Origin: Bacilli bacterium
GTDB taxonomy: Bacteria; Bacillota_I; Bacilli_A; RFN20; CAG-449
Length of the DNA: 64,000 nt
Direction: 5' to 3'
Assembly: GCA_048359995.1 (NCBI GenBank)
Contig: DBGCPK010000005.1
Coordinates: 56,585 to 120,584 of the forward strand
Below are positions 13,704 through 31,442 of this stretch, one piece after another (position 1 is the stretch's first letter; the number at the start of each line of letters is the position of its first letter). The notes under the pieces are model-generated. The model was given only the letters and a program-made list of their open reading frames with translations, did not search any database and was not told where the DNA came from. Made by a program: the position numbers and the translations under genes.

Positions 13704-16184
13704 ATGATACAATATCTTTATTTTCATACTGGCAAAGAATATGTTTCAAAACTTAGTCTTGGAAGATCCGAGGAAGGCTACTCGGACAATGAAATGCTTT
13801 TTGAAACGGTTCGAAAATCCGTGGAAGGGAATACATTTACATATGCGCCTGTTGGTAGTGAAGATGCGATTTTTATGCAAGCTTCAAAAGGTCCGGATGG
13901 CTTATTTACAAAAGGCTTAAGGGGTAACATAGGCGCCATTTCGAATGCTCCGGCAAAATACATAGATAAGTTTGAGAAAAATCCGTTACCAACCTATTGC
14001 AATTCAGAAAAATTGCCTGAAGGGGAACTTCCACCTATAGGCAGACTTCAAGATGACTTCTCATTGGCAAGAGATTTGCATCATATTTTTCCCAAATTAG
14101 TTGATATTCTTCTTTTTGGAAACACAAGTAAAAACATAGTAATTTTGACTGAAACACCTTTGAAAGCTATGAACTATATTAAAGTTCTAAGTGTGCTTTT
14201 GCCATTATCTTTTATGAAGAAAATCGGCTTTTGCATCGGCGCAGCCAATATCCCTGATGAAGATTTTTCTATCATAAAAAATGATGGAAATACTGAGTCA
14301 TTATCTATACGTATTTGGCTTCCAGAATCAAGAAATTATATTTTTGAGTCTCTAGCATCATATTACTATGTATTTGATACTAGAGCGCAAGGTGAAAACT
14401 ATCGTGATAATTACAATCAAGAGCTTAGTACAACAGCTAAGGTTTTAGATGAAATAAATCTCTGCGACCAAAATCAAACAAAGAGGTTTTCTGACTATAT
14501 AGCAAGTGCATTTGATTCACATGGTAATTTGAATGCCGCAGTCTTAAAGAGAAACTCAGCATTGTTCATGTTTGAAGTCAAGCGGGATGTAGATTCTGCA
14601 AAGGAAATTTTGAATATGGGCTTCGATGGGGGCGATATACAAGAACATGCATTTACACGAGCAGCCTCAATATTATTACGCCAAGAAAATATTCAATATT
14701 TATCACTACAAAATAAAAATGCGATAGTATTGGGATATAAAAAGAACAATCGTATTGCTCAAGAACTTGAAAGCTCTTTATTTGACTATTTGTCAACCAC
14801 ATATGCATCACTCGTGCCCGATGAGAAAAAATTGTTTGCCGAAATGGTCTATAATGACGTATCTGGCAAACGGTTGAATTCCTATTTAAAAAAATCGCTA
14901 CGCGGTGATTTCCAAGCAAGAGTAGATGCATTTGATTTTTCAAGTAAAATTTTAGATGTCGCGTTAAAACAGTCAGGCAATAATCTATACTCGATTAAAG
15001 ATTTGGTTAAGACAGTAGTGGAATTCTTTGATATTGGTGATTGTTTTAGAATCATTCCACCTGGTCAAATGACATCAGGTGAAGCCTTCTTTAACTGCAT
15101 TCCACAGTATGAGAGGACTGAGTTACGGCAACTTATGACGGCCATATTACTTTCTTCTGCATACAAAAAATTGGTGCCGGAAGATCATTGTGAAATCAGA
15201 TTGAGAGGTTTTAAAAAGATATTGCCCAATATCGATGAGAAACATATAAATCAGTTTGAATTCATTTTGGGAGTAAGAAATAAAATTCTTGAAATATCGG
15301 AGTTAATACCTGAATTGGATATTGAAAATCAGTTTGATTTCTTATTTAATATTAAGTTCGGTGAATTTTTTGTTTCAGAATTTATACAGAGGCTATCCGT
15401 TGAAGAAGCGTTAGATGCAGAAAAGCTTGTAAAAAGTCGTACATCACAACGATTATTTTATGAGAGTATGTCTACTGCGATCAGAGCAAAATTATTGGAT
15501 ATTAAATTTGTCAAAAAACATATAAAAAGTGGAGCCGTCGCATCTGAACGATACATAGAATTTTTCAGAACATTACCCCAAGACAAAAAAAGTGAAGCCG
15601 CAGAGATTGATTCATATCTTTCCGAATTGAATCACGAGTTTGACATTAATGAAGAATTCGGCCATTATCGTTATGGTTTTGCTCAGGAATGTTATAATAC
15701 ACTTTCTGCTGATAACCAAAACGAAATTAAACAGAGTATAAGTCAACGAAAAGCAAAAGATACATCATTGGATGAGAGATTACTTTTTGTTGAAGAGATA
15801 ATACGCGTTTTTGGTACGATTAAAGGACATAAAAGAAAAGGAAGACTTTCATATTGCGGCATATTCTTATGGGCTTTTGGGTTTAGCCTATTGTCTATGC
15901 TAATCTTGAGTCTTCCTGCTATTATTTTTCCGGCAAGTTTGGGAACGTGCGATTCCGCACATATCTTGGAAAAGTTTATATATTACTTTAAACCGTATTT
16001 ATTGGCTTTGCCTGTTTATGTATTTTTGCTTGAACTGGTAATTTATTTTTGCTTTAAACAAGGCAACAGATTGAAAAGAGCAAACATTATTACAATTCTT
16101 TGTGGAATACTTCCGATAGTGATTTTTACATTATCCTGTGTTTTCTTCTATTACATTAGAATTGATTTACCTTTTAGTCTGTAA
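13704..16184 (+). CDS. Large hypothetical membrane protein (826 aa), soluble N-terminal region plus about four C-terminal TM helices
   Basis: C-terminal 150 aa consists of hydrophobic helices (GIFLWAFGFSLLSMLILSLPAIIF, YLLALPVYVFLLELVIYFCF, IITILCGILPIVIFTLSCVFFYYI). Confidence 0.6.
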   Translation: MIQYLYFHTGKEYVSKLSLGRSEEGYSDNEMLFETVRKSVEGNTFTYAPVGSEDAIFMQASKGPDGLFTKGLRGNIGAISNAPAKYIDKFEKNPLPTYCNSEKLPEGELPPIGRLQDDFSLARDLHHIFPKLVDILLFGNTSKNIVILTETPLKAMNYIKVLSVLLPLSFMKKIGFCIGAANIPDEDFSIIKNDGNTESLSIRIWLPESRNYIFESLASYYYVFDTRAQGENYRDNYNQELSTTAKVLDEINLCDQNQTKRFSDYIASAFDSHGNLNAAVLKRNSALFMFEVKRDVDSAKEILNMGFDGGDIQEHAFTRAASILLRQENIQYLSLQNKNAIVLGYKKNNRIAQELESSLFDYLSTTYASLVPDEKKLFAEMVYNDVSGKRLNSYLKKSLRGDFQARVDAFDFSSKILDVALKQSGNNLYSIKDLVKTVVEFFDIGDCFRIIPPGQMTSGEAFFNCIPQYERTELRQLMTAILLSSAYKKLVPEDHCEIRLRGFKKILPNIDEKHINQFEFILGVRNKILEISELIPELDIENQFDFLFNIKFGEFFVSEFIQRLSVEEALDAEKLVKSRTSQRLFYESMSTAIRAKLLDIKFVKKHIKSGAVASERYIEFFRTLPQDKKSEAAEIDSYLSELNHEFDINEEFGHYRYGFAQECYNTLSADNQNEIKQSISQRKAKDTSLDERLLFVEEIIRVFGTIKGHKRKGRLSYCGIFLWAFGFSLLSMLILSLPAIIFPASLGTCDSAHILEKFIYYFKPYLLALPVYVFLLELVIYFCFKQGNRLKRANIITILCGILPIVIFTLSCVFFYYIRIDLPFSL

Positions 16185-17159: not shown

Positions 17160-20100
17160 ATGAACGACAAAATTACTGCAAAGAATGGAATAATTAAGAT
17201 ACTTTCAATTATCGTTGTTGCGATATTAGCAATTGCGGTAACTGTTATTGGCATCTTATTGCTCAATAAAGATTCAAACACTGAAAATGCAAGCTATAGC
17301 ATCATTGTCGATGATGAAATTACAATATATGAGGGAGATACATTTACTTTAGTTCCATATTTGGTAAACAAGGATGGAACGGTAGTTGAATCTCGCTTTG
17401 ATTATTCGGCATCTGATAAGGCTATATCTGTTAATGTTGACGGTGTGATTTCCGTAAACTCAATTCCCGAAAATGATGTCCACGTATCAATTTATGAGCG
17501 CAACACGTCTACAACTGCTGAAGTAAACGTTAATATCGTCGGTAGACTCACTAAAGTCTTGGGCATTACTTTCAGCGATTTAGCTGGAAATAAGATGTTG
17601 GTGTCGGGCACACAGAATTTAAAATTAGGTGAAACTTATATCATTGACGTAGTGACTGAACCACGTAATGTCGAAATTGAGAATTATTGTCTTTTGCAGG
17701 CTCTGAATTCGAGCGGTACTGAAAAGAATGTATTTGAATTTGCATACACCAAAACTAATGTTAGTATGACGGCAGTTGGTCTTGGATCTGGAACATTGCT
17801 GCTCGATATAACAAATGACGATAATCAGTCCATATACGATACTGATTTCGATTTTTCCGTCTCGATGTCTGATGAGAATCTTAGCGAAGAGATACTGAAT
17901 AGTACTAATACAACTTTATTATCAAAAGAAGAGCTTAACAAAATTGAAAAAGTTGAGTTGAGTCAAAATGTTTCAAATTTAGATGGTTTACAAAATTTAA
18001 CATCATTAAAAACGGTTGTATTTACAGCTGATGAGGTAATGAATATTGAGAATATCTCTCAGAACTATTGTTACAGAATTAAAACAAATTTGTTTGAGAA
18101 TTATCTAGATGCGAATAATTGGGCAGATTATTTAAAATGTATAATTCCTTATGAAGAAAGTGCTGATGAACTTTTTATTGTATATCATAATGCAAAGACT
18201 GCAACAGGAGAGGAAAATGTTGTATATGAAAGGTTAGAGAATATTGCAAATTTTCCTACTTATATTTTTGAGGGATATACGAATTTTGGATGGTTAGATG
18301 GAACCGAAACAGAGGTATCTTTATCTCAAGTTAAGGCTTCCGTAAAGAGTAATGGCATACATTTATATGCCGGTTGGAATCCTATATCATATAAAGTTGT
18401 TTATCACATTAGAGATTCTGAGGTCGCTAACAAAGAAGAGATCTTTTATTACGATACAGAATATTTACTTAAAGTGCCTAACGAGATTGATAGTTCAATA
18501 ACTCATACTGGATATAAATTTGCTGGTTGGACACGTAATAGAAATTCAAATACTTTCTCACCTAATGTGCAATTTAGGAATGGCGACGCTATCTCTAATT
18601 TAACTAGCGAAGCTGATGCTATTATAGATTTGTATGATATTTGGGAGCCAATAGAATATACGGTTATTTTTTCATCTGTCGAAGGGATGGAAGAGATTGC
18701 AGACCTTACAGCAAAATATAATACAGCATATACGTTACCGACACCATCTAGACCCGGTTATGCATTTAATTATTGGAAGCTTAATAACGGAGATATATTG
18801 AATGCAGGGATACAAGATCCTAACCTTGATTCCGAATTAAATTTATCAAGTATTGAAGGCGCAGAAATAATTCTTACTCCAGATTTCACTGAAATAACCT
18901 ATACAATAACATTTAGGCTAAATGGAGGTCAAGCCCTTCAGGATCTGTCATTTGTAGATGGATACAGAAAGACATTGTATTATGAGGAAGAATATACTTT
19001 ACCCTATTTAACTAAAGAAGGGTATACGAGATATTACTGGCTTTGTGCTGAAAATGGTAAACAATATAAACTAGATGAGAATAACAAAGGACCAAAACTT
19101 TTACAAGAATTTACTACAGCATGCGAGGTAACATTCTCTGCGGTTTGGACGTCAGCAGAATACAGTATTAATTATGATTGCAATGGTGGTAATATTGCCG
19201 GAGATAGTTATGTGACAGATACAAGATTTTGGGACGATGGTGGTTCCTTGTTAACGCCTCAAAGAATAGGATATACTTTCGTAAAATGGCAAGATATTGA
19301 TCATGAAGATATTAGCTATGTTCCCGAAGATGCCGGATGGACAAGCAACTTAATTAAGTCTGCGCAAGAGGATGGTGCCGAATTCAATTTTAAAGCCGTA
19401 TGGCAAATAAATTACTACGATCTCACTATATCAACTGGTGCGGGAACTAGCTTATCTGTTAAAGTAAACGATCAAACTAAACTTGACGGTACGTATAGTG
19501 TCGCATATAATAGCACAATTACTGTTAGTTATAGTGCAAATACAGGGTATAGTAATGCCGAATGCACTTTCCCTGGCGGTAATATGCCTGCTAATAATCT
19601 AACAATAAAGTCTAGTGCTACAATCAATAAACATAATGTAACAATCATTATTGGCAGTGGCTCATATATGACTGTAAACATAGGCGGGACATCATATTCG
19701 AACAACCAAACAGTTAAAAATGTAGCTTATGGAACTTCAATTTCTGTTTCAAACTATGGTGCTACTAACGGTTATCATGACGGTTGGGCTTCATGCGATT
19801 ATAGCACGATGCCGGATTATGATATTACAGTTAGCTCTGGAGCTACACCAGATTCATGTTTTACAAAGGGAACAATGTTAATGCTAGGAGATGGGACTTC
19901 AGTTGCCGTTGAAAATCTCAGAATCAACGATATAATTTTAGCATTTGATCATTCCACGGGACAGTATGTTGAAAGTCGAATACTTTATACTTATTATGGC
20001 TACGATTATGTACCGTCAATTGAACTATATTTCTCCAATAAAGCAGTTCTCGAATTCTTAAATGTAGGACATGGTCTTTTTGATGCTACGATGAATGAAT

Positions 20101-20543
20101 ATGTTCTCATTAACGCTAACAACGTGCAAGAATATGTAGGACATGAGTTCTTATATACAAGCTTTATTGACGGCAATTTTGTCGCTAATACAGTCAAATT
20201 AGAATCTTACATTGTTTCGAGCAAATTAGTTGAACGTTACGATATTGTAACGGAAAGCACATTAAATCATATTGCCAATGGATTACTTGCATGCTCGGAT
20301 ACATTGGTAGGAATTTGCAATATGTTCAAGTTTGATGATGACTTTACTTATGACATTGTGCAGTTGCAAATCGATATAGAAACATACGGATTATATACGT
20401 ATGATGAATGGAGGAAATATATATCATATGAGGATTTTGTTTCTTTCAATGGTGCATATTTTAAAATTGCCGTAGGAAAGGGATTAATAAGCGTAGATGA
20501 AATATTATCGCTTCTTGATGATTTGTCTGAAAATCGCGCATAG
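17160..20543 (+). CDS. Large surface protein: N-terminal TM anchor, Big_2-like Ig domains, LRR-like segment, multiple Listeria-Bacteroides (Flg_new) repeats, C-terminal Hint domain plus about 80-aa extension
   Basis: Repeated Y.I.YD.NGG...P.R.GYTF.GW units. Hint hallmarks CFTKGTMLMLGDGT, VGHGLF and YDIVTESTLNHIANGLLA. Confidence 0.75.
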   Translation: MNDKITAKNGIIKILSIIVVAILAIAVTVIGILLLNKDSNTENASYSIIVDDEITIYEGDTFTLVPYLVNKDGTVVESRFDYSASDKAISVNVDGVISVNSIPENDVHVSIYERNTSTTAEVNVNIVGRLTKVLGITFSDLAGNKMLVSGTQNLKLGETYIIDVVTEPRNVEIENYCLLQALNSSGTEKNVFEFAYTKTNVSMTAVGLGSGTLLLDITNDDNQSIYDTDFDFSVSMSDENLSEEILNSTNTTLLSKEELNKIEKVELSQNVSNLDGLQNLTSLKTVVFTADEVMNIENISQNYCYRIKTNLFENYLDANNWADYLKCIIPYEESADELFIVYHNAKTATGEENVVYERLENIANFPTYIFEGYTNFGWLDGTETEVSLSQVKASVKSNGIHLYAGWNPISYKVVYHIRDSEVANKEEIFYYDTEYLLKVPNEIDSSITHTGYKFAGWTRNRNSNTFSPNVQFRNGDAISNLTSEADAIIDLYDIWEPIEYTVIFSSVEGMEEIADLTAKYNTAYTLPTPSRPGYAFNYWKLNNGDILNAGIQDPNLDSELNLSSIEGAEIILTPDFTEITYTITFRLNGGQALQDLSFVDGYRKTLYYEEEYTLPYLTKEGYTRYYWLCAENGKQYKLDENNKGPKLLQEFTTACEVTFSAVWTSAEYSINYDCNGGNIAGDSYVTDTRFWDDGGSLLTPQRIGYTFVKWQDIDHEDISYVPEDAGWTSNLIKSAQEDGAEFNFKAVWQINYYDLTISTGAGTSLSVKVNDQTKLDGTYSVAYNSTITVSYSANTGYSNAECTFPGGNMPANNLTIKSSATINKHNVTIIIGSGSYMTVNIGGTSYSNNQTVKNVAYGTSISVSNYGATNGYHDGWASCDYSTMPDYDITVSSGATPDSCFTKGTMLMLGDGTSVAVENLRINDIILAFDHSTGQYVESRILYTYYGYDYVPSIELYFSNKAVLEFLNVGHGLFDATMNEYVLINANNVQEYVGHEFLYTSFIDGNFVANTVKLESYIVSSKLVERYDIVTESTLNHIANGLLACSDTLVGICNMFKFDDDFTYDIVQLQIDIETYGLYTYDEWRKYISYEDFVSFNGAYFKIAVGKGLISVDEILSLLDDLSENRA

Positions 20544-20578: not shown

Positions 20579-21208
20579 ATGGCTAAAATAAAATTAATAA
20601 CAGTAAAGTGCGCTCACTGCGGTAAAGAGAGCGAGCAGACAACAGTTTATAGTAGCAGTTCATTCGGTAGTATGGATTTAGATACTAGACCGCCGATGTC
20701 CGATATGACGTTGCAATATGAAGTGCAGGAGTGTCCTCACTGTCATTTCTGCAATAATACAATTGTAGATGCTACAAATATTCCGGAGTCATTTTCTCCG
20801 GAATATGATGCACTATCAAAGGATAACATCATTTCCCAAACCGCTAAAAAATTCTTGTTGGCAGCAATGCTTCGGGCTCAAATCGGAGACAATCTTAAAG
20901 CCGGGGAGTACTATTTAAAGGCCGCTTGGGTATTTGACGATGAAAATGCTCAAGAAGCCGCTATAGATGCACGTAAAAATGCAGCAATAAAATTCCGTGA
21001 GTATGTTGATGCTACCGACGATGGTAATGTCGCCATTGTGCTAGTAGATGTCCTCAGACGTGCAGGAGATTTTAAAGCTGCAGCAGACCTCATAGACTTA
21101 ATAGGTAATACCGAAGATAAACTTTTAAACAATATTCTTTCGTTTGAAAAATCATTAATAAGTAAAAACGATACGTCCTGCCATAACATGGGAGAAATAG
21201 CTGAATGA
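20579..21208 (+). CDS. Zinc-ribbon (CxxC...CxxC) plus helical-repeat protein
   Basis: CAHCG...CPHCHFC followed by an Ala-rich helical TPR-like region. Candidate partner or immunity-type protein for the upstream gene. Confidence 0.5.
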   Translation: MAKIKLITVKCAHCGKESEQTTVYSSSSFGSMDLDTRPPMSDMTLQYEVQECPHCHFCNNTIVDATNIPESFSPEYDALSKDNIISQTAKKFLLAAMLRAQIGDNLKAGEYYLKAAWVFDDENAQEAAIDARKNAAIKFREYVDATDDGNVAIVLVDVLRRAGDFKAAADLIDLIGNTEDKLLNNILSFEKSLISKNDTSCHNMGEIAE

Positions 21209-22305
21209 TATTCGGGAACAAATACACTAAAACCCGAATATCAACGCCTTATTCGAAATTGTCCGAAATGGAATTATTATCGAGGTTTGAGAGCGATAGC
21301 TGGACTAAATTAAATCAACAGGAAAAAATCGATACTATTCAAGAATTAGAAAATCGATACGCAGTCGAGCAAAAAAGACCAGTATCTAAAATTGAGGCAG
21401 AGGACAACTCTTACAATTATGGTTCCTATGCAAAATCGGAAAATACTATCCGTATTCGTATGGAGGATAGTAAAGCAAATACATCTTATGAGATGCTGGA
21501 TTCTTACTATCATGAGAGCAGACACGCACAACAATATCAAGCAATCGAGTCGGGTAAAGGATTGGATGAGACTACACGGAATGTTTGTCAGACTGAATTA
21601 CGAGGCAATTACGTTGGCGGCGGAAAATATTATGACATGCAGACTTGTGAAATGGATAGCAATAACTATGCGGCAGACAAGATGTTGTCAAACAAAAAAC
21701 TCTTCGAGGGGGATGAAAAGTATAACGAGTATTTAGAACGACTCCAAGAACATTTCGAAGAGGTTAATAAAAGTTGTCATGAAGATGAAGATTTTAGAGC
21801 TCGTCAGCAAATTAATAATGTAGATAAGAGCTTAGCACGCGGTAGTATTACGGAAAAACAAGCAAACCAAATCAAAGAGCAAGTATACAGTGACAACGAC
21901 GATCCCGTATTAGCAGAGAGCTGTGATATTGAGGATAGACTACGAGAAGAAAACTCTGAACGTTTAGAAAATAGAAATTCAGCATCAAACGACTTGACAT
22001 TAGAACAAAAGCGCGAACAATTTTTCGAAACCGAAAGCACTGACGCTGAAACAAACTATAGTCAAAACGATATAAGTAAACGTCAACAGTTTTTTGAGAG
22101 AGATGAATCATCTGATGATCAAGAGCAAGTATCAGACAACCTAGCTAATTCAGAAGAGGACACACATAGCAAGCACGAGCAATTTTTTGAAGACAGCGGA
22201 AGCAATAATGGGCAAGGAGATGGCGAAGGAAATACTGAAGCGTTCGGCGAAAGTGAACATAGTGGCGAGAGTGAGCAATCCTCTCAAACGAATTCAATTA
22301 CATAG
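21205..22305 (+). CDS. HExxH-motif protein (putative zincin-like) with acidic disordered C-terminal tail carrying repeated [KR][HQ]x[EQ]FFE motifs
   Basis: YYHESRHAQQ contains H-E-x-x-H. The tail repeats EQFFETES, RQQFFERDES and HEQFFEDSGS. Confidence 0.6.
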   Translation: MIFGNKYTKTRISTPYSKLSEMELLSRFESDSWTKLNQQEKIDTIQELENRYAVEQKRPVSKIEAEDNSYNYGSYAKSENTIRIRMEDSKANTSYEMLDSYYHESRHAQQYQAIESGKGLDETTRNVCQTELRGNYVGGGKYYDMQTCEMDSNNYAADKMLSNKKLFEGDEKYNEYLERLQEHFEEVNKSCHEDEDFRARQQINNVDKSLARGSITEKQANQIKEQVYSDNDDPVLAESCDIEDRLREENSERLENRNSASNDLTLEQKREQFFETESTDAETNYSQNDISKRQQFFERDESSDDQEQVSDNLANSEEDTHSKHEQFFEDSGSNNGQGDGEGNTEAFGESEHSGESEQSSQTNSIT

Positions 22306-22325
22306 TTTATTTTGAGGGAAAGTAT

Positions 22326-22852
22326 ATGAGTCATATTATTGATGGATACGCAAGTGAAAGCGAAATAAGTAGTTTTATTGGTGGAAACCCCGTTGTCGCT
22401 GCCTATGCAAAAAACAAGGATAATCCAAATGAGTATTACTATGAATATTGGTCAAGTATAAAGCATCCAGAGACGGGAGAAAGGCTTCAAGCCGTAAAAG
22501 GGTACTGTAATCCTAATGATTTTAACCAATGCTATTACGCAGAATATCGAGATGCTGAAGGCAATTCTTACCATTATCTCGACTCCAGATATTATCATGA
22601 TCCGGAGTTGTGCGGCAATAAATCAATTTCACAACAGCAATCGGAAGATGCAGCTGAGTGGAAAGAAAATTTTCTACTCGAAAGCACGAAGAATTCTTTG
22701 AGAAATCATCGGGCGAAGACACATCAAAAACAAGTGAAAAACATCAGGCTTTTTTTGAAAAAACAAATGGTTCTAACGAAAGTGTTTCTAGTTCAGAAGA
22801 GTCATCTAATGACAAATCAAATGCTAATGGAAATATTAATAGTCAATCATGA
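22326..22852 (+). pseudogene. Frameshifted paralog-like gene with the same FFE-repeat acidic tail (frameshift near 22645-22665)
   Basis: Frame A (22326-) and frame B (22658-22852) are each open. The FFEK repeat motifs HEEFFEKSSG and HQAFFEKTNG are encoded only in frame B. The switch lies in an A-rich run, GGAAAGAAAATTTT. Confidence 0.5.
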
Positions 22853-23193
22853 TGATTGTTGAGAGAAATTACGCAGACAGAGTTCTCATCTTATTAAGTG
22901 AATTAGTTCATATTTTTCCAGAAGATTATCAAGCGCAACTTCAGCTTCTTGAGCAGCAATTAAATGAACTAAGCTGTGATGAGGATTTGATTATTTTTGT
23001 AATACATTTCCTAAAAAAATATTTACTTAAAAATAGCAACAAGCCCCCAAAAGCAGTTTTTTTCGAAGAGTGCAAAGAGGAAAAAGCCAGTAACATTAAT
23101 TGTGTAAACGTTAAGATTGATGAATTAATTGCGGCGCTGAATTGGTTATTAGACGGGCAAAATCAAACTGAATTTAAAGGAATTATTAGATAG
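22849..23193 (+). CDS. Small hypothetical helical protein (114 aa)
   Basis: ATGA overlap with the upstream gene; acidic/helical composition; no motif. Confidence 0.5.
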   Translation: MMIVERNYADRVLILLSELVHIFPEDYQAQLQLLEQQLNELSCDEDLIIFVIHFLKKYLLKNSNKPPKAVFFEECKEEKASNINCVNVKIDELIAALNWLLDGQNQTEFKGIIR

Positions 23194-23195
23194 CA

Positions 23196-24506
23196 ATGAT
23201 AAAACAGATACTTTCGGGGAATTTATTAGAAAAGAATAGCCCTCCAGTGATAGATGATCCACTTATCTATATTAATGGAACATGTAATGGTTCCCGCGCA
23301 TCGTTTATGCTAAATGAGAGCATTTTGAGTAAACATATGATGCTCATAGGTGGAACTGGGTGTGGCAAAACTAATACTTTTCTCCATTTGGTTAAACAAC
23401 TTAAATCCAGCATGACAGAAGACGATGTGATGATTATTTTTGATACAAAAGGCGATTATCATAGTAAGTTTTTTAATTCTAACAAGGATTACGTTTTGTC
23501 CGCATCATCTCTGTATAAACAAGACGCTTGTACATGGAATATATTTAGCGAAATTTTAGCTGACGGCAATAGAGCAAGCGAAATTGAACCTAATATTGCA
23601 GAAATATCATGGGGACTTTTTAGCGTGAGCATCGAAAAAAATAATAGTAATCCATTTTTCCCTAATGCAGCAAGAGACCTTTTTTCTTCGATTTTAACAT
23701 GTATTGTAAGGTATGCTGAAGGGAGAGAAGACTGGATATCTAAATATTTACATAATGCTTTTTTGAAAACTAAACTTGATAAAATGAATGCTAAAGCAAT
23801 TGGTGAATTGCTGAAGGACTACGATGATCAAGCTGCTGTAATGAGTTACATTGGCAATGGAGAGAATCAACAAGGGTTGGGCGTAATGGCCGAGATGCAG
23901 TCAGTTATCAGGAAAGTATTTGTAGGTGCATTCGCAGAGAAGGGTGACTTCTCCATTAGAAAATTTATTAGAGACAAAGGAGCTAAAACACTTTTTATCG
24001 AATATGACTTGTCGCGGGGAGCCACATTAACTCCAATATACAAGTTACTTATTGACCTGGCATTAAAGGAAGCAATGAGCAGAAAATGCAAAGGTAATGT
24101 GTATTTATTCTGTGACGAGTTTAAACTGTTACCTTACTTACAACATATCGAAGACGCGGTTAACTTTGGGCGTTCTTTAGGTGTTAAGGTTTTTGCAGGA
24201 CTTCAAAGTATAGATCAGCTCTATGAAAATTATGGCGAAGCTAGAGGAAAAAACATTATCGCTGGATTTTCAAGCGTTTTATCTTTCAAGGCCAATGATG
24301 AAGACACACGAACTTTTACCTCTGGATTATACGGTAAAAATTACATATTGGAGCAGTATAGAGTATTGGAAAATGCTTATGCCGAAGATAAAAGATTAGG
24401 CTCTGTTGTTGAAGATTGGGAAATTTGTAGCTTACAAGTTGGTGAAGCAGTTGTTGGGTTGCCTAACACAGCACCATTCAAATTTAAATTCGATTTATAT
24501 AGGTGA
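23196..24506 (+). CDS. VirD4/TraG-family (type IV coupling protein-like) P-loop ATPase, soluble form lacking N-terminal TM segment
   Basis: Walker A LIGGTGCGKTNT, Walker B LFCDEF, NPFFPNAARDLFSSIL (the DPFW..AA..LL motif of T4CPs), and GRSLGVKVFAGLQSIDQLYENYG (the GRS.G.....Q...QL..YG block). Confidence 0.65.
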   Translation: MIKQILSGNLLEKNSPPVIDDPLIYINGTCNGSRASFMLNESILSKHMMLIGGTGCGKTNTFLHLVKQLKSSMTEDDVMIIFDTKGDYHSKFFNSNKDYVLSASSLYKQDACTWNIFSEILADGNRASEIEPNIAEISWGLFSVSIEKNNSNPFFPNAARDLFSSILTCIVRYAEGREDWISKYLHNAFLKTKLDKMNAKAIGELLKDYDDQAAVMSYIGNGENQQGLGVMAEMQSVIRKVFVGAFAEKGDFSIRKFIRDKGAKTLFIEYDLSRGATLTPIYKLLIDLALKEAMSRKCKGNVYLFCDEFKLLPYLQHIEDAVNFGRSLGVKVFAGLQSIDQLYENYGEARGKNIIAGFSSVLSFKANDEDTRTFTSGLYGKNYILEQYRVLENAYAEDKRLGSVVEDWEICSLQVGEAVVGLPNTAPFKFKFDLYR

Positions 24507-26047
24507 TCAGAATGTTAAGAGCGATTTTTGGTTTTTTTGTCGGTCTATTTCGACGCAGTTCAAATCTTAGAAATACTGAACAGCAATTAAATAATATTGA
24601 TGTTCAGAATGAAACAAACAAAAATGTCGTTGAGTATCGGAATAATGCCATAGAAGCATTTGTTCCAAACGGAACTGAAAATATTGTTGTTTCTGGTTCA
24701 AATGAAAGTTTACGTAATAGAGTAAACTGCGCATCTGCTTGGCGTTGCCATGAGGTGGGAAGGGCAGCAGTCATTTTACATTGCAGTAATTATCAGTTAT
24801 CTGAGCTGATCGATGAAACATTTAGCGGCGAGAGGGGCTTTCATAATTTGAATAGTCGTAATCCATATTACGATCCTTTTGTTGGCTTAAACCGTTCGGA
24901 AATTTCACAGATGATTTTGAGTTCATCTGGTAGCAATTATAAAATTGAGCGAATAGGAAATTCGTATATATATGGATTAATCGATTACCTTCAGCTAATT
25001 GGTAGACCTATTTGCGTTGAAACTTTTAATAACTGCTTACGAGATAGAAGCTACGAACAAATTATGGAGCAGGCAGAACGAGGAAATATTTCCGAATTTA
25101 TTGCTAGGCGAATTAATTCAGAATTAGCACAAGGAAAACTTGAAGCTGGAAACATTGAACAATACTTTACGGTATTAAAGCAGCAAACTGGAAATACTCT
25201 AGCTGATGAATCATCCGTCTCTAATGCTATCAGTATTAAAAAAGCTTTAAGACAAAATGAAATCATAGCATTTGATATCGGTGATGCATCCAATTCATTA
25301 TTACTTAATTTGGTTATTCAAGAAATAAGAGATGCAATTTCTGCAGGACTAAGATTTACACTGATTATTGATTCAATTCCAGTTGATTCATCGGAATCTC
25401 TTGGACAGTTGATGAGGAATTTTTCAGGTATGTGCTCGTTTGTTTATTCGTCTCCAGATGCATATACAAGTGCTCAAAGTACAGCAAATATTTTTGACAC
25501 CATTCTTGGACGAGCCAATACCGTATTTGTATTGCAGCATTCATCTACTTCCAGTGGAAGATTTTCTCAGTTTTTAGGTCAATATCAAAAAATAGAAGTT
25601 AATCATACTTTTACAAGCGGAGATACATATGCAACATTTGGGCAAATTCTGCCCGGTTCATCATCTGCAAATATTTACGGAACGCAATTGGTTAATAGAG
25701 CTCGAGTAGAGGAAAACGAAATTTCATCTCAGAGTCCCGAGCACGTATATATTAAAAGAAGTGGAACCAATGAGATAATAAGTGTGAGGTGTACAGGTGG
25801 TAGCGCAAAGACTCATTACGAAACGCCGCAAATAAATATTTCACGCCGTCCTAGAGCAACCAGACGAAGAATGAGTTGGATTGTTTTTATTTTATTGTTC
25901 GTTTTCTGTTGTCCGGCTGCATTTATTTACTCGTTTGTAAAATCGGGCAGAATAGGAAAAATTGTCAGTGCAATATTCTTTTTCTTAGTGCTGGCATTGT
26001 ACATTTGTCAGATTGTTTTAATTGTCAATGGTAGGACGGTTAGTTAA
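24503..26047 (+). CDS. Polytopic membrane protein (514 aa), N-terminal TM and two C-terminal TM helices
   Basis: ATGA overlap with the upstream ATPase gene. Hydrophobic N-terminus AIFGFFVGLF. C-terminal helices WIVFILLFVFCCPAAFIYSF and IVSAIFFFLVLALYICQIVLIV. Confidence 0.6.
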   Translation: MIRMLRAIFGFFVGLFRRSSNLRNTEQQLNNIDVQNETNKNVVEYRNNAIEAFVPNGTENIVVSGSNESLRNRVNCASAWRCHEVGRAAVILHCSNYQLSELIDETFSGERGFHNLNSRNPYYDPFVGLNRSEISQMILSSSGSNYKIERIGNSYIYGLIDYLQLIGRPICVETFNNCLRDRSYEQIMEQAERGNISEFIARRINSELAQGKLEAGNIEQYFTVLKQQTGNTLADESSVSNAISIKKALRQNEIIAFDIGDASNSLLLNLVIQEIRDAISAGLRFTLIIDSIPVDSSESLGQLMRNFSGMCSFVYSSPDAYTSAQSTANIFDTILGRANTVFVLQHSSTSSGRFSQFLGQYQKIEVNHTFTSGDTYATFGQILPGSSSANIYGTQLVNRARVEENEISSQSPEHVYIKRSGTNEIISVRCTGGSAKTHYETPQINISRRPRATRRRMSWIVFILLFVFCCPAAFIYSFVKSGRIGKIVSAIFFFLVLALYICQIVLIVNGRTVS

Positions 26048-26706: not shown

Positions 26707-27535
26707 TCATATTGCAGGAAATATTTTTTTAAAATTATCAATTCCAATTCTATCTTGAATGAAATTAAATGCTGAAACAATCGTTGAAGCTTCTTTATTA
26801 AGAACTAAGATACCAATCATAAAATTTGAAAAAGGAAATAGAAGAGTCATTAGATATTGTGAATCATTGGTTTTACCAATAACTAAATCAAGTTGAGGAA
26901 TATATACTTGACGATTTTCTGCAAGAAATTTTAAATAGTCTTCATACATTCTTCCATCTCTGATTGCTTGTAATTCTTTTCTTTCTTTGTCTTTGTACTT
27001 GTAAGCTTTTCTTGGCTTCATTTTTACTTTATTTCGTAAATCATGATCTTTTATTTGAAGATATCTATTTGTTACATAATGGTAAACAGTTCTTTCGGAT
27101 ACACCTATCTCAGGATGATTGATCATAGTAGTAATGATGAATCCGACAAGAACCAGTCTTTTGACAACCATTGCATACATAAGGGAATCTAGTTAAACGA
27201 GAACAAGTCTTGATAACAAAATCTTACAAATGAGAGTAAGATCTTTCGTAATACATTTTCTACATTCATATGCACATAATGTTGAACAGACTTTCGTTTT
27301 CTTACATTCCTTTACTTTTGAACAAATACAACAATATGGACGAATATAATCACCGCGTTTTACTTGTTTTACATAACGATGCTTCCGAATTTCTTTGGAG
27401 AATGAAGTAGGATCTTTTCCAATCTTCCTCGCAATTTCATTTTATTTTGTTCCTTTTTTGATTTCAATTAAGATAGTATCTCTTTGATCGAGAGTCATAT
27501 GTGTTCCTTTTGCCATTCTTTTCCTTCCTTTCTTT
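26707..27535 (-). mobile_element. IS30-family transposase gene remnant (in-frame stops, 3'-truncated)
   Basis: Reverse-strand translation gives an IS30-like HTH (IARKIGKDPTSFSKEIRKHRY, cf. IA..L.RSPSTISREIQRN). It also gives the catalytic-core region DLVIGKTNDSQYLMTLL (cf. GHWEGDLVSGTKNSHIATLV). The reading frame is broken by stop codons and ends before the final third of the DDE domain. Confidence 0.55.
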
Positions 27536-29504: not shown

Positions 29505-31442
29505 ATGGAAGAAAAATTGACGGATCAAGAGATCGTCCGACGGCAAAAAGTAGAAAAACTGAAAGAATGGGGAATCGATCCTTTCGGGCAGGCTTACGAG
29601 AGAACGGCGTGGTCGAACGAGATTCGGGAAAAGGTGCGGGGATTGACGCACGAAGAGGCGGAAAATCTGAACTTGAATGTGTCTGTCGCAGGAAGAATCA
29701 TGTTTATCCGAAAAATGGGAAAAGCGAGTTTTTTCGCCATTCAGGACTTAAAAGGAAAAATTCAGATTTATATCAGCGTCAACGATGTCGGAGAAGAAAC
29801 GTATACCTTGTTTAAAACGGCGGATGTCGGGGATATCGTCGGAGTCAAGGGCAAAGTGATGTTGACCCAGACAGGCGAACCGACGGTGAAATGTTCGGAA
29901 TATACGCATTTGACCAAAGCGCTCAGACCATTGCCGGAAAAATTTCACGGGTTGACCGACAAAGAAGAACGTTACCGTCGGAGATACGTGGATTTGATTA
30001 TGAACGAAGATGCCAAGAAAACGGCATTGATGAGACCGAAGATCATTCGTGCGATTCAGGAATACTGCGATGGTCAAGGTTTTGTCGAGGTTGAAACGCC
30101 CGTTCTGCAACCGATTCAGGGGGGCGCTACCGCGCGACCTTTTGTCACGCACCATAACGCGCTGAACAAAGACTTCTATCTTCGGATCGCGACGGAACTT
30201 CCGTTGAAAAGATTGATCGTCGGAGGATTGGAGAAGGTCTATGAAATCGGACGACTTTTTCGGAACGAGGGAATGGATCTTACGCATAATCCCGAATTCA
30301 CCACGATCGAACTCTATGAAGCTTACGGCGATTTGTCTTCGATGATGAAAATCACCGAAGAGATGATTCGTTTCGCGGCGAAAAAAGTTGCCGGCAAAGA
30401 AGAATTTATCGATATTTTTCACCCGAGCGGCGAGAAGATCGACCTTTCCAAACCTTTCCGAAAAGTGACGATGTGCGAAATGATCGCGGAAGAAACCGGC
30501 ATCGATTTCAAAAACCGCAGATATACGTTGGAAGAAGCGAAGAAATTGGCTGTCGAACACGGAGTAGAAGTGGAAAAACACTTTACGATCGGTCACATCA
30601 TCAACGGGTTTTTTGAAAAATATTGCGAAGAAAAGCTGATTCAACCGACTTTCTTATGCGCTCATCCCGTGGAAATTTCCCCGCTTACGAAGATCGATCC
30701 GGAAGATGATCGTTTCGTTCAACGCTTTGAACTTTACATCGGTGGACACGAATTCGCGAATGCGTATACCGAGTTGAACGACCCGATCGAGCAGAAGAAT
30801 CGCTTTCTCGAACAACTGAAAGAACGGGACGCAGGGAACGACGAAGCCAATGAGATGGACGTCGACTTCATCGAAGCGTTGGAATACGGTATGCCTCCTT
30901 GCGGTGGGGTCGGAATGGGAATCGACCGCTTGGTGATGTTTCTGACGGAACAGGTTTCGATTCGTGAAGTGCTTTTATTCCCGACGATGAAAGTCATCGG
31001 AGATACGGACGCGTTAAAAAAAGCCGAAAAGGCAATACGGACGGAAGGCAAAACGACGGAAAAGATCGACTTCTCCGATGTCAAAATCGAGCCGTTGTTC
31101 GAAGAGACGGTCGATTTCGAGACGTTTAGCAGATCCGATTTCCGCATCGTGAAAATCGAAGCCTGCGAAGCGGTGGCGAAGAGCAGGAAACTTTTGAAGT
31201 TTACCTTGAATGACGGAACGGATCGGAAACGCACGATACTAAGCGGCATTCACGAATATTACGAGCCGGAAGATTTGATCGGAAAGAAGGCGGTGGCTAT
31301 CGTCAATCTGCCTCCGAGAGCCATTATGGGCATCGAATCCGAAGGAATGCTGATCTCCGCCGTACATCGAAACGGCGATCGGGAAGGACTGCACCTTCTG
31401 ATCGTCGACGACGATATTCCCGCGGGCGCGAAACTTTATTGA
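29505..31442 (+). CDS. lysS: Lysine--tRNA ligase (class II) fused to C-terminal Myf/EMAP-type tRNA-binding domain
   Basis: Full class-II LysRS core with motifs 1-3, plus a C-terminal domain of about 150 aa (ILSGIHEYYEPEDLIGKKAVAIVNLPPRAIMGIESEGMLISA) matching the MetRS/CsaA tRNA_bind fold. Confidence 0.9.
   Translation: MEEKLTDQEIVRRQKVEKLKEWGIDPFGQAYERTAWSNEIREKVRGLTHEEAENLNLNVSVAGRIMFIRKMGKASFFAIQDLKGKIQIYISVNDVGEETYTLFKTADVGDIVGVKGKVMLTQTGEPTVKCSEYTHLTKALRPLPEKFHGLTDKEERYRRRYVDLIMNEDAKKTALMRPKIIRAIQEYCDGQGFVEVETPVLQPIQGGATARPFVTHHNALNKDFYLRIATELPLKRLIVGGLEKVYEIGRLFRNEGMDLTHNPEFTTIELYEAYGDLSSMMKITEEMIRFAAKKVAGKEEFIDIFHPSGEKIDLSKPFRKVTMCEMIAEETGIDFKNRRYTLEEAKKLAVEHGVEVEKHFTIGHIINGFFEKYCEEKLIQPTFLCAHPVEISPLTKIDPEDDRFVQRFELYIGGHEFANAYTELNDPIEQKNRFLEQLKERDAGNDEANEMDVDFIEALEYGMPPCGGVGMGIDRLVMFLTEQVSIREVLLFPTMKVIGDTDALKKAEKAIRTEGKTTEKIDFSDVKIEPLFEETVDFETFSRSDFRIVKIEACEAVAKSRKLLKFTLNDGTDRKRTILSGIHEYYEPEDLIGKKAVAIVNLPPRAIMGIESEGMLISAVHRNGDREGLHLLIVDDDIPAGAKLY

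What the first reader, a model, noticed from the sequence alone, without database searches (positions are those of the whole stretch)
21205..22852. Two adjacent proteins with acidic tails carrying a repeated [KR][HQ]x[EQ]FFE motif, one with HExxH
21205-22305 has YYHESRHAQQ (zincin-like HExxH), then a D/E/S-rich tail with three copies of the QFFE motif. The neighbouring gene ends with two more copies (HEEFFEK, HQAFFEK). Repeated short linear motifs in disordered C-termini are typical docking or secretion signals. A VirD4-family coupling ATPase is encoded two genes downstream.
Basis: inference. Interest (0 to 1): 0.65.

Follow-up and report, generated by a model that had tools for sequence, protein, structure and literature searches.

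The report
Shared docking tags beside a T4CP-like ATPase
Two neighbouring proteins of a gut Clostridia gene island (one a putative zinc protease) carry floppy tails with repeats of the same short phenylalanine motif, and this motif changes in step in both proteins across species and always sits next to a conjugation-type motor ATPase, which points to an undescribed client-recognition system.

Summary
The motif is real. [KR][HRQ]x[EQA]FFE occurs five times in all six frames of the 64 kb window, only at 22009, 22078, 22171, 22682 and 22739. The 366-aa protein (21205-22305) has a confidently modelled N-terminal domain with invariant HExxH and a disordered tail.

One correction: in this genome the neighbour gene is frameshifted. 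A 1-nt deletion near 22659 puts its two motif copies out of frame with its folded domain. Relatives are intact.

In orthologues the motif columns are as conserved as the folded domain (0.73 vs 0.75), and the rest of the tail is not (0.42). The motif class switches together in both proteins (KHxQFFE, EDxxFFEK, EENFDGE).

The N-domain family is large (1,624 representative clusters). Its tails usually carry lineage-specific hydrophobic-in-acidic repeats. In 11 of 12 independent contexts it lies within 4 kb of a TM-less VirD4/TrwB-like ATPase, and usually just after a DUF2225-like zinc-ribbon protein.

No other type IV secretion (T4SS) genes are present. Neighbours instead resemble conflict/defence systems (DO-GTPase-like, TIR, CHAT).

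Best reading: multivalent docking motifs for a cassette-encoded partner, most likely the ATPase. Secretion itself is unproven. New variant of a known kind; interest about 0.6.

The parts
20579..21208 (+). 209-aa zinc-ribbon plus helical (DUF2225-like) protein. Its stop overlaps the start of the zincin gene. It is a conserved upstream partner and a candidate chaperone or motif receptor.
   Evidence: Pfam DUF2225 1.8e-06, above cut-off. An equivalent ~207-217-aa protein sits immediately upstream of the zincin gene in L001, L004, L005, L006, L007, L010, L012, L013 and L021.
21205..22305 (+). 366-aa protein with an N-terminal zincin-like domain (about residues 1-260) and a disordered acidic tail (273-366). 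HESRH is at nt 21511-21525. The broad-family invariant Glu is E149 in CEMDSNN.
   Evidence: ORF. Invariant H103, E104, H107, E131, E149 and D151 in alignment A1. Broad-family invariants are H, E, H and E149. AF2 pLDDT is above 90 for residues 1-260 and below 50 for 273-366. Foldseek best hits are anthrax lethal factor, minigluzincins and PprI, all weak.
22009..22029 (+). Motif copy 1, KREQFFE
22078..22098 (+). Motif copy 2, KRQQFFE
22171..22191 (+). Motif copy 3, KHEQFFE (the best conserved copy across orthologues)
22326..22658 (+). N-terminal small beta-rich domain of the neighbour protein (about 110 aa). It has no known fold relative.
22659..22660 (+). Site of a 1-nt deletion (GAGTTGG to GAGTGG) that separates the neighbour's domain from its FFE tail in this genome
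   Evidence: Alignment with L001-L003. L015 is intact and L009 has the same lesion. P0028 equals the frameshifted product and occurs on 4 contigs.
22658..22852 (+). Tail of the neighbour protein, in a shifted frame, with KHEEFFE (22682-22702) and KHQAFFE (22739-22759). Its stop overlaps the next start codon (ATGA).
22849..23193 (+). 114-aa helical protein with a single KAVFFEE (23050-23070). A conserved ~106-118-aa gene lies next to the ATPase.
   Evidence: An FFE-like copy is present in L001, L005 and L007 and absent in L004, L010 and L013.
23196..24506 (+). 436-aa soluble VirD4/TrwB-like (T4CP-like) ATPase. Walker A is GGTGCGKT and Walker B is D307-E308. It has no TM segment.
   Evidence: Pfam and NCBIfam hits. 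No TM-like segment. Invariant Walker residues in A7.
24503..26047 (+). 514-aa partner of the ATPase with two C-terminal TM helices and no P-loop. It is conserved with the cassette.
   Evidence: TM-like segments at 455-473 and 481-499. Homologous to the L010 422-aa protein (BLASTP 2e-13). Only a weak profile link to the T4CP family (hhalign probability 14%).

Best explanation
The KHxQFFE repeats are multivalent short linear docking motifs on intrinsically disordered C-terminal tails. They mark two (perhaps three) co-operonic proteins as clients of one shared partner encoded in the same conserved cassette. The clients are a zincin-like metallopeptidase, a small beta-domain protein and possibly the 114-aa helical protein.

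The most likely receptor is the soluble, catalytically intact T4CP-like hexameric ATPase (23196-24506), acting with its membrane-anchored 514-aa partner. On this reading the ATPase binds the tails through the aromatic pair in its charged context. It then uses ATP to recruit or thread the clients, either across the membrane or to remodel or activate them at the membrane.

Shown: the motif is real, it is conserved against a drifting background, its class switches together in both proteins, and the gene linkage to the ATPase is tight. Inferred: that the ATPase is the receptor, and what happens after docking. The cassette as a whole belongs to a LoaP-led, horizontally acquired island whose other genes look like a conflict/defence system rather than a conjugation machine.
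For: - Motif statistics.
- Disorder of the tail against a confident N-domain.
- Motif columns 0.73 conserved, against 0.42 for the rest of the tail and 0.75 for the N-domain, across 16 orthologues.
- Motif retained in 2-4 copies down to about 45% identity.
- Co-variation of motif class in both proteins: KHxQFFE in the window and L001; [RS]H[SK]DFF in L005 and L007; three FF motifs in parallel order (KEDRSFFEKVENK against KEDKTFFEKVEDK) in L004; EENFDGE five times and three times in L006. The best 9-mer score matrix is diagonal-dominant, 40-45 on the diagonal against 21-32 off it.
- The extended family (1,624 clusters) keeps the same architecture, with other repeated hydrophobic-in-acidic motifs.
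- A T4CP-like ATPase lies within 4 kb in the window, L001, L004, L005, L006, L007, L008, L010, L012, L013, L014 and L021.
- Walker A and B motifs are invariant in the ATPase.
- In a Treponema element the same zincin domain sits beside a bona fide conjugative T4CP and a MobA/MobL relaxase. This suggests an ancestral T4CP-client relationship.
- From established knowledge (my own, not tested here): FtsK/T4CP-family ATPases recognise C-terminal signals of their protein substrates in T4SS and T7SS.
Against: - There is no direct evidence of binding.
- The DUF2225-like ZnR/helical protein is as tightly linked as the ATPase. TPR-like proteins are classic peptide-motif receptors.
- No T4SS channel genes or relaxase are present, and the ATPase lacks a TM domain.
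- The small beta-domain neighbour is missing from several cassettes (L010, L012, L013, L021), so the two-client arrangement is clade-specific.
- The neighbour is frameshifted in this very genome, so at least one tagged client is dispensable or only weakly expressed here.
- Motif counts per genome are not constant.
Confidence: 0.45

Rival explanations
1. The motif receptor is the DUF2225-like zinc-ribbon/TPR-like protein encoded immediately upstream and translationally coupled to the zincin. It would act as a chaperone, inhibitor or adaptor that holds the zincin and the small protein by their tails. The ATPase would act on the complex only indirectly.
For: - The ZnR/helical protein sits directly upstream of the zincin gene in 10 loci, with overlapping stop and start in the window.
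- From my own knowledge: helical-repeat (TPR-like) proteins commonly bind short acidic or aromatic C-terminal peptides (Hop-EEVD, PEX5-PTS1, T3SS class II chaperones).
Against: - L008 and L014 keep the zincin plus T4CP pair without a DUF2225-like gene.
- The Pfam match is weak (28 bits), and a TPR fold was not tested.
- It does not by itself explain why the 114-aa protein next to the ATPase also carries one copy.
Confidence: 0.2
2. The tails are true export signals. The T4CP-like ATPase, its 2-TM partner and other membrane proteins of the operon form a T4SS-independent translocon that secretes the zincin (a toxin or effector) and the small protein out of the Gram-positive cell.
For: - C-terminal, disordered, repeated tags sit on otherwise signal-peptide-less proteins.
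- An FtsK/T4CP-type ATPase is adjacent, and its partner has TM helices.
- A few distant family members hit the Tox-MPTase2 and Tox-MPTase4 toxin models.
- C-terminal Met is enriched in the family (27 of 128), which hints at a terminal signal.
- The T4SS review notes that dedicated effector translocation by Gram-positive T4SS-type machinery is an open question (PMC12857230).
Against: - No recognisable channel components are present.
- No immunity-gene logic is evident.
- Neighbours such as DO-GTPase2, TIR, CHAT, PP2C and VWA are typical of intracellular conflict systems (PMC7159879).
- One 'substrate' is frameshifted here.
Confidence: 0.25
3. The acidic-aromatic tails are autoinhibitory pseudo-substrates or nucleic-acid mimics. 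They would occupy the DNA-binding channel or surface of the T4CP-like translocase, or the protease active site, until invading DNA displaces them and switches on a defence response.
For: - Tail A has a strong net negative charge (-22).
- T4CPs are DNA translocases, and the matched Pfam domain is 'DNA-binding'.
- The context is defence-like.
- Distant members have SprT-like hits. From my own knowledge, SprT-like proteases are DNA-dependent.
Against: - Tail B is barely acidic (-3).
- A specific, position-conserved FF core with a K/H prefix argues for peptide-groove recognition rather than charge mimicry.
- Nothing was tested directly.
Confidence: 0.07
4. The repeats are core sites for post-translational modification (RiPP-like), carried out by radical-SAM enzymes of the island.
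For: - An NrdG-like radical-SAM activase is conserved in the operon.
- L001 has an rSAM/SPASM gene downstream.
- From my own knowledge: repeated aromatic motifs are typical of some RiPP precursors.
Against: - The motifs sit on 180-830-aa proteins with folded enzymatic domains.
- The SPASM gene is absent from the window and from L004, L005 and L013.
- The activase is of the glycyl-radical-activase type.
- Motif classes without aromatics (DDGLGDE, QGMDEP) exist.
Confidence: 0.03

Closest known systems
C-terminal translocation signals of T4SS protein substrates recognised by the coupling protein (VirD4/TraG/DotL complexes; for example Arg-rich tails of Agrobacterium effectors and Glu-rich 'E-block' signals bound by DotM in Legionella). 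Recalled from my own knowledge, plus PMC12857230 for T4CP complexes.
   Same: The signal is a disordered C-terminal segment on proteins encoded near a VirD4-family ATPase. Recognition would be by a charged/hydrophobic short signal. A relative of the zincin domain lies beside a genuine T4CP and relaxase in a Treponema element.
   Different: The motif is repeated 2-6 times and is lineage-specific. The ATPase has no TM domain and scores far below the T4CP equivalog cut-offs. No VirB4, VirB6, VirB8, VirB1 or relaxase genes are present.
Type VII secretion: FtsK/SpoIIIE-type EccC/EssC ATPase binding C-terminal signals (YxxxD/E) of WXG100/LXG substrates (my own knowledge)
   Same: It is a Gram-positive setting. 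An FtsK/HerA-superfamily ATPase, with a possibly degenerate partner, is paired with small substrates carrying an aromatic plus acidic C-terminal signal and with small helical accessory proteins.
   Different: There are no WXG100, EsaA or EssB genes. The ATPase is of the TrwB/VirD4 clade, and NCBIfam T7SS_EccC_b gives only 16.9 bits. The motif is repeated and sits in a long disordered tail rather than at the end of a helical hairpin.
DO-GTPase/GAP1 'GTPase-centric' conflict systems (Kaur, Burroughs, Iyer, Aravind 2020, eLife; PMC7159879)
   Same: The island is mobile. It contains a ZnR-fused TRAFAC-type GTPase with Glu in Walker B (GSTRAGKT, DIAGED, TKMD), followed by a large protein with C-terminal TM helices. 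It also encodes extracellular repeat proteins and variable effector-like neighbours (TIR, CHAT, VWA, PP2C). L010 has a Pfam DO-GTPase2 hit in the equivalent position.
   Different: The window GTPase and the 826-aa protein match no Pfam DO-GTPase or GAP1 model. The paper does not mention VirD4/TrwB-type ATPases or this zincin-tail cassette (0 occurrences of VirD4 or TrwB).
Zincin metallopeptidases of the DUF6782 / SprT-like / Tox-MPTase type
   Same: HExxH sits on a helix after a small beta-sheet, and there is an invariant downstream Glu. Of 55 distant family members, 9 hit DUF6782, 4 hit SprT-like and 2 hit Tox-MPTase models. The best Foldseek hits are zincins.
   Different: The window protein itself matches no Pfam, NCBIfam or PDB profile. 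The long helical extension (residues 147-274) and the SLiM-bearing tail are specific to this family.
FFAT motifs (two phenylalanines in an acidic tract, EFFDAxE) and the SSB acidic C-terminal tip (DDDIPF). My own knowledge; resemblance of form only.
   Same: An aromatic or hydrophobic core is embedded in an acidic, disordered tract and used as a docking peptide.
   Different: These have different consensus sequences and different receptors (VAP MSP domain; SSB-interactome OB/hydrophobic pockets). There is no evidence for such partners here.

Membership tests
Type IV coupling protein (VirD4/TraG/TraD/TrwB) | FtsK/HerA-superfamily NTPase domain with Walker A/B and a TrwB-type all-alpha/DNA-binding region | tested here: met
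   Pfam TrwB_AAD_bind 8e-41, T4SS-DNA_transf 2.9e-22 and TraG-D_C 5.5e-15. GGTGCGKT and D307-E308 are invariant in A7.
Type IV coupling protein (VirD4/TraG/TraD/TrwB) | N-terminal transmembrane anchor | tested here: not met
   No hydrophobic segment in the 436-aa protein. TM helices are found only in the separate 514-aa partner.
Type IV coupling protein (VirD4/TraG/TraD/TrwB) | Genetic association with a relaxase and mating-pair-formation genes (VirB4, VirB6, VirB8, VirB1) | tested here: not met
   None found by Pfam, NCBIfam or PADLOC in any operon protein or elsewhere in the window. The Treponema relative L008 does have a MobA/MobL relaxase.
Type IV coupling protein (VirD4/TraG/TraD/TrwB) | Score above curated NCBIfam equivalog cut-offs | tested here: not met
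   TraD_Ftype scores 94 bits against a cut-off of 521. conju_CD1115 scores 69.8 against 250.
T4SS/T7SS-type C-terminal substrate signal | Located in an unstructured C-terminal segment of a protein without a Sec signal | tested here: met
   pLDDT is below 50 from residue 273. No N-terminal hydrophobic segment.
T4SS/T7SS-type C-terminal substrate signal | Direct binding to the ATPase and ATPase-dependent export | not testable with these tools
   Needs biochemistry, genetics or multimer modelling. Only genetic linkage (11 of 12 loci) is available.
Short linear motif (SLiM) under selection | Motif residues conserved while flanking disordered sequence diverges; motif present in orthologues | tested here: met
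   0.73 against 0.42 column conservation. Motif present in alignments A1 and A3.
Short linear motif (SLiM) under selection | Co-variation of the motif among proteins that share the receptor | tested here: met
   Three motif classes switch together in both proteins. The sample is small: 4 independent lineages.
Zincin (HExxH) metallopeptidase | Invariant His-Glu-x-x-His | tested here: met
   H103, E104 and H107 are invariant in 24 and 55 sequences. HE..H is found in 159 of the 163 proteins examined (23 close homologues plus 140 further representatives).
Zincin (HExxH) metallopeptidase | Third metal ligand or downstream acidic residue on a following helix | tested here: met
   E149 (ExDSNN) is invariant across the broad family and E131 within the close family. 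Both lie in predicted helices. Which one is the ligand is not resolved.
Zincin (HExxH) metallopeptidase | Significant profile or fold match to a known peptidase family | tested here: inconclusive
DO-GTPase/GAP1 conflict system (PMC7159879) | TRAFAC GTPase with Walker-B Glu, often with an N-terminal ZnR | tested here: inconclusive
   The motifs GSTRAGKT, DIAGED, TKMD and CPFC...CLFC were read in the 669-aa protein. No Pfam DO-GTPase hit. Weak BLASTP (1e-4) to the C-terminus of the L010 DO-GTPase2 protein.
DO-GTPase/GAP1 conflict system (PMC7159879) | GAP1 protein downstream of the GTPase | tested here: inconclusive
   The 826-aa protein with C-terminal TMs is in the right place. It has no Pfam hit and no BLASTP similarity to the L010 900-aa protein.
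FFAT motif | EFFDAxE core in an acidic tract that binds a VAP MSP domain | tested here: not met
   The core is xQFFE, with no D4 or A5 and a basic K-H/R prefix. No MSP-domain protein was detected among the proteins scanned in the operon and window.

The most novel reading that the evidence does not exclude
The cassette (ZnR/TPR-like protein, zincin with SLiM tail, TM-less T4CP-like ATPase, 420-530-aa partner and a ~110-aa helical protein) would be a previously undescribed client-handling machine, independent of the T4SS and derived from conjugative coupling proteins. It is widespread in Clostridia and other anaerobes. Lineage-specific repeated 'address tags' would direct a protease effector and its companions to a hexameric translocase, for export or for triggered activation in a defence response. 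That would amount to a new secretion or effector-deployment pathway in Gram-positive bacteria.
Probability: 0.2. Interest if true: 0.85.

Novelty: new variant of a known kind. Interest (0 to 1): 0.6.

Why it matters
Coupling-protein ATPases are known almost only as gatekeepers of conjugation and T4SS effector delivery. Whether Gram-positive bacteria use such motors for dedicated protein handling is described as an open question (PMC12857230).

Here a T4CP-like motor without any T4SS is strictly linked to a large, unannotated zincin family (1,624 representative clusters). The disordered tails of that family carry repeated, co-evolving peptide tags. This gives a directly testable recognition code (peptide plus ATPase or DUF2225), a handle on a family absent from Pfam, and a possible new effector-deployment module in abundant gut Lachnospiraceae.

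If it turns out to be only an accessory of a DO-GTPase-type defence island, it still adds an undescribed effector cassette to those systems.

Tried and rejected
- PDB profile search with the family alignment: no hit at E <= 10.
- Pfam, NCBIfam and PADLOC on the two tailed proteins, the 114-aa protein and the 514-aa protein: nothing.
- Foldseek against the PDB: only weak zincin hits.
- AFDB50 library: unavailable.
- tblastn of the N-domain against PLSDB plasmids and INPHARED phages: no match. There is therefore no evidence that the cassette is plasmid- or phage-borne.
- Genome and metagenome pattern scans: only 2 and 6 loci, too few for a systematic co-variation statistic.
- Idea that the 514-aa protein is a degenerate T4CP paralogue: BLASTP found nothing and hhalign gave probability 14%, so it is left open.
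- Idea that the 826-aa protein is GAP1: no similarity detected.
- Programmed -1 frameshifting to rescue the neighbour: a canonical A_AAT_TTT heptamer lies 9 nt after the deletion and would restore the tail, but there is no stimulatory structure downstream (z = -1.0). Relatives have a plain in-frame gene, so it is treated as a mutation.
- Chance low-complexity repeats: rejected by the shuffles and by orthologue conservation.
- Literature searches for DUF2225, LoaP/Hint/Lachnospiraceae and T4CP/defence: no description of this cassette found.
Full report
**1. What is in the sequence**

Positions 2393-26047 form one uninterrupted + strand gene array of about 18 genes. Its G+C is about 35%, and it lies between chromosomal dus (48-905) and lysS (29505-31442), where G+C is about 42-48%. 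A serine recombinase gene sits at the left edge, 1395-2054 on the minus strand.

The finding covers ORF 21205-22305 (366 aa) and the region up to 22852. The 366-aa protein contains LDSYYHESRHAQQ (HESRH = nt 21511-21525). Its last ~100 residues carry KREQFFE, KRQQFFE and KHEQFFE. KHEEFFE and KHQAFFE follow at 22682 and 22739.

**2. Is the motif more than chance?**

- The strict pattern [KR][HRQ].[EQA]FFE matches five times in the six-frame translation of the whole window, all in this region.
- None of 200,000 residue shuffles of tail A reaches three FFE. For tail B, 77 of 200,000 reach two.
- At DNA level the copies form a 21-nt repeat family, AAGCRCGARCARTTTTTYGAR.

**3. A correction to the observation**

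The 'neighbouring gene' is not intact in this genome.

- Its N-terminal domain is read from 22326. The two motif copies lie in a different frame, ORF 22658-22852, whose TGA overlaps the next ATG.
- Alignment with three loci that are 92% identical in the zincin protein shows a single-base deletion in the window, GAGTTGG to GAGTGG near 22659.
- In L001-L003 and L015 the 178-aa protein is one ORF with the tail in frame.
- The frameshifted product (P0028) is recorded on four contigs from NCBI, ENA and Logan. L009 has the identical lesion. It is therefore probably a real allele of this strain, not a one-off assembly error.
- Another cluster (P0031) has a different frameshift, in the T-run of the first FFE codons.
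- Only the first tail is strongly acidic (net -22). The second has net -3.
- A weaker sixth copy, KAVFFEE, is in the 114-aa protein 22849-23193.

**4. The zincin-like protein**

- Only 23 clusters of close homologues exist, from Lachnospiraceae/Eubacteriales. H103, E104, H107, E131, E149 and D151 are invariant among them.
- AlphaFold2 with this alignment gives pLDDT above 90 for residues 1-260. The model has three short strands, then a helix carrying HESRH, then further helices. pLDDT is below 50 from residue 273.
- No Pfam, NCBIfam or PDB-sequence hit was found.
- A profile of the N-domain searched against 1.84 billion representatives finds 1,624 clusters at E <= 1e-3, 392 at <= 1e-10 and 79 at <= 1e-30. 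The domain is always N-terminal.
- Across 55 diverse members the invariant residues are G, H-E-x-x-H and the Glu equivalent to E149.
- Nine of the 55 hit Pfam DUF6782 ('putative metallopeptidase', best 3e-6). Four hit SprT-like, and one each hits Tox-MPTase2 and Tox-MPTase4.
- I conclude that it is a divergent, unannotated zincin family. Catalysis is inferred, not shown.

**5. The neighbour**

**6. Do the motifs behave as functional linear motifs?**

- In 16 orthologues the 21 motif columns are conserved at 0.73. That is the same as the folded domain (0.75). The other 91 tail columns are at 0.42.
- Copy number varies between 2 and 4.
- The motif class changes together in the two adjacent proteins of each genome:

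| Locus | Zincin tail | Neighbour tail |
|---|---|---|
| window, L001 | K[RH]xQFFE | KHEEFFE, KHQAFFE |
| L005, L007 | KH[HS]QFF[AES] | [RS]H[SKR][DR]FF |
| L004 (32% identity) | GDETFFK, EDAEFFSKQ, KEDRSFFEKVENK | GDSSFFES, ADEEFFKSQ, KEDKTFFEKVEDK (same order) |
| L006 | EENFDGE, five copies | EENFDGE or EDNFD, three copies |

- A best-9-mer score matrix (zincin tails against neighbour tails) is diagonal-dominant for the three classes, 40-45 on the diagonal against 21-32 off it.
- In the extended family the tails (0-740 aa) are mostly acidic. They carry other lineage-specific repeats with a hydrophobic core: SYLGE, EYxDLDD, DDGLGDE, QGMDEP, ANGI, DxSYFD, DAEVYSD, YDYAGSME and LSMDEL.

**7. 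Gene context**

The order Fer4_12 activase, ~660 aa, ~830 aa, 317 aa, ~1,100-aa surface protein (Listeria-Bacteroides repeats plus Hint), DUF2225-like ZnR protein, zincin-tail, ~180-aa neighbour, ~113 aa, T4CP-like ATPase and ~510-aa protein is kept in full in L001, L005 and L007. L004 and L006 keep it with small differences: L004 has a transglutaminase-like gene instead of the 317-aa gene, and L006 lacks the ~113-aa gene.

More distant members keep a core:

- L010: ZnR(209), zincin(564, DDGLG type), 254-aa TM protein, T4CP(441), 106 aa, 422 aa, flanked by DO-GTPase2 and CHAT.
- L012: ZnR(212), zincin(827), T4CP(433).
- L013: Hint protein, transglutaminase, ZnR(208), zincin(731), 116 aa, T4CP(435), 531 aa, TIR, PAD.
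- L014: zincin(562), T4CP.
- L021: rearranged, with the T4CP, a 427-aa protein, VWA and PP2C upstream of ZnR and zincin.
- L011, a 3.6-kb contig, is the only one that shows no ATPase.
- In a Treponema MAG (L008) a 260-aa relative without repeats lies beside a typical T4CP and a MobA/MobL relaxase (3.5e-70).

Altogether 11 of 12 independent contexts have the ATPase within 4 kb.

**8. The ATPase and its partner**

- The ATPase (23196-24506) matches TrwB_AAD_bind (8e-41), T4SS-DNA_transf and TraG-D_C, with invariant Walker A and B residues.
- It has no TM segment and scores far below the T4CP equivalog cut-offs.
- The 514-aa partner has two C-terminal TM helices and no P-loop.
- The partner is homologous to the TM-less 422-aa protein of L010 (2e-13).
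- A relationship between the partner and T4CPs is only hinted at (hhalign probability 14%).

**9. What the island is**

- It starts with a LoaP-type NusG antiterminator, above the NCBIfam cut-off.
- Then come TetR, a transglutaminase-like peptidase, a ClpB-NBD2-like AAA+ protein (PADLOC DolB and PDC-M37B hits), an NrdG-like radical-SAM activase, and a 669-aa protein.
- The 669-aa protein has a Cys4 zinc ribbon and a GTPase with GSTRAGKT, DIAGED and TKMD. These features match the 'DO-GTPases' of Kaur et al. 2020 (PMC7159879), although no Pfam DO-GTPase model hits it.
- No VirB4, VirB6, VirB8, VirB1 or relaxase is present anywhere in the window.
- That paper does not mention VirD4/TrwB-type ATPases, and my literature searches found no description of the cassette.

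**10. Interpretation**

Shown:
- a real, selected, co-varying linear motif on disordered tails of two adjacent proteins;
- tight linkage of the zincin-tail family to a T4CP-like ATPase and to a DUF2225-like protein.

Inferred:
- The motifs are multivalent docking sites for a cassette-encoded receptor. The ATPase is the most likely receptor (about 0.45). The DUF2225-like protein is the main rival (about 0.2).
- Docking leads to ATP-driven recruitment or threading. Whether this ends in export (about 0.25 overall) or in intracellular activation within a conflict system cannot be decided with these tools.

'Docking signal near a VirD4-family ATPase' holds up well. 'Secretion signal' remains a hypothesis, and the frameshift was missed.

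**11. Novelty and score**

Recognition tags for FtsK/T4CP-type ATPases are a known kind. This one differs in several ways. It is a repeated, lineage-specific, co-evolving tag on a large unannotated zincin family. It is coupled to a TM-less T4CP-like motor outside any T4SS. I rate it a new variant of a known kind, interest about 0.6. The most novel reading, a new effector-deployment or secretion pathway, has probability about 0.2.

Noticed in passing
window 22659-22674: The 1-nt deletion that frameshifts the neighbour gene is followed 9 nt later by A_AAT_TTT (22668-22674, in the upstream frame). This is a canonical -1 slippery heptamer whose use would restore the FFE tail. Relatives have AAAACTTTA there instead. 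No stimulatory structure lies downstream (z = -1.0).
   Followed up: partly
P0031 (homologue of the neighbour protein): A second, independent frameshift occurs in the tail, inside the T-run that encodes the first FF (KHKDFLNSH... instead of KHKDFFEQS...). The TTTTTT(T) runs created by FF codons may make these tails prone to slippage or to assembly errors.
   Followed up: no
window 2393-2968: The 24-kb array starts with a LoaP-type NusG paralogue (NCBIfam antiterm_LoaP, 132.5 bits against a cut-off of 125), followed by a TetR regulator. This suggests processive antitermination of the long operon.
   Followed up: partly
window 11682-13691 and 13704-16184: The 669-aa protein has a Cys4 zinc ribbon (CPFC...CLFC) and a TRAFAC-type GTPase with Glu in Walker B (GSTRAGKT, DIAGED, TKMD). 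The 826-aa protein after it has three C-terminal TM helices. The pair resembles the DO-GTPase/GAP1 pair of Kaur et al. 2020, but without any Pfam match.
   Followed up: partly
window 11092-11685: An NrdG/PflA-type radical-SAM activase (Fer4_12, 8e-31) is conserved in the operon in the window, L001, L004 and L005, with no recognisable glycyl-radical enzyme next to it.
   Followed up: no
window 17160-20543: A 1,127-aa signal-anchored surface protein has Listeria-Bacteroides repeats and a C-terminal Hint (intein/hedgehog-type autoprocessing) domain starting at CFTKGT. The L004 and L013 equivalents also have Hint hits. In L021 an LRR_5 protein takes its place.
   Followed up: no
window 1395-28000: The island has about 35% G+C against about 44% in the flanks. 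It is inserted between dus and lysS/htpG, with a serine recombinase at the left end and an AT-rich stretch (29% G+C) with a DUF3990-like fragment (26707-27180, minus strand) at the right end. There is no tRNA gene in the window.
   Followed up: partly
family members P0001-P0178: 27 of 128 long family members end in Met (typically ...S-M, ...D-M, ...Y-S-M) and others end in ...G-M-E. This is far above the usual Met frequency and may indicate an additional C-terminal tip signal. The window protein ends in ...NSIT.
   Followed up: partly
L008 (Treponema MAG) 7031-12375: A repeat-less 260-aa relative of the zincin domain lies in a mobilisable element beside a typical VirD4-type T4CP, a Sel1-repeat protein and a MobA/MobL relaxase. 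This hints that the cassette descends from a conjugative-element T4CP-client pair.
   Followed up: partly
L004 17357-21323; L013 13602-16451; L010 16438-17695; L021 3457-5133: Downstream or neighbouring genes of related cassettes encode TIR, CAP12-PCTIR TIR, CHAT, peptidyl-arginine deiminase (PAD), VWA and PP2C proteins. These are typical of defence/conflict islands.
   Followed up: no
window 4665-6908: A 747-aa protein has a single ClpB-NBD2-like AAA_2 domain (NCBIfam ClpB 6.7e-62 over residues 373-548 only). It hits PADLOC DolB (Dodola) and PDC-M37B models. Its N-terminal 370 residues are unannotated.
   Followed up: no
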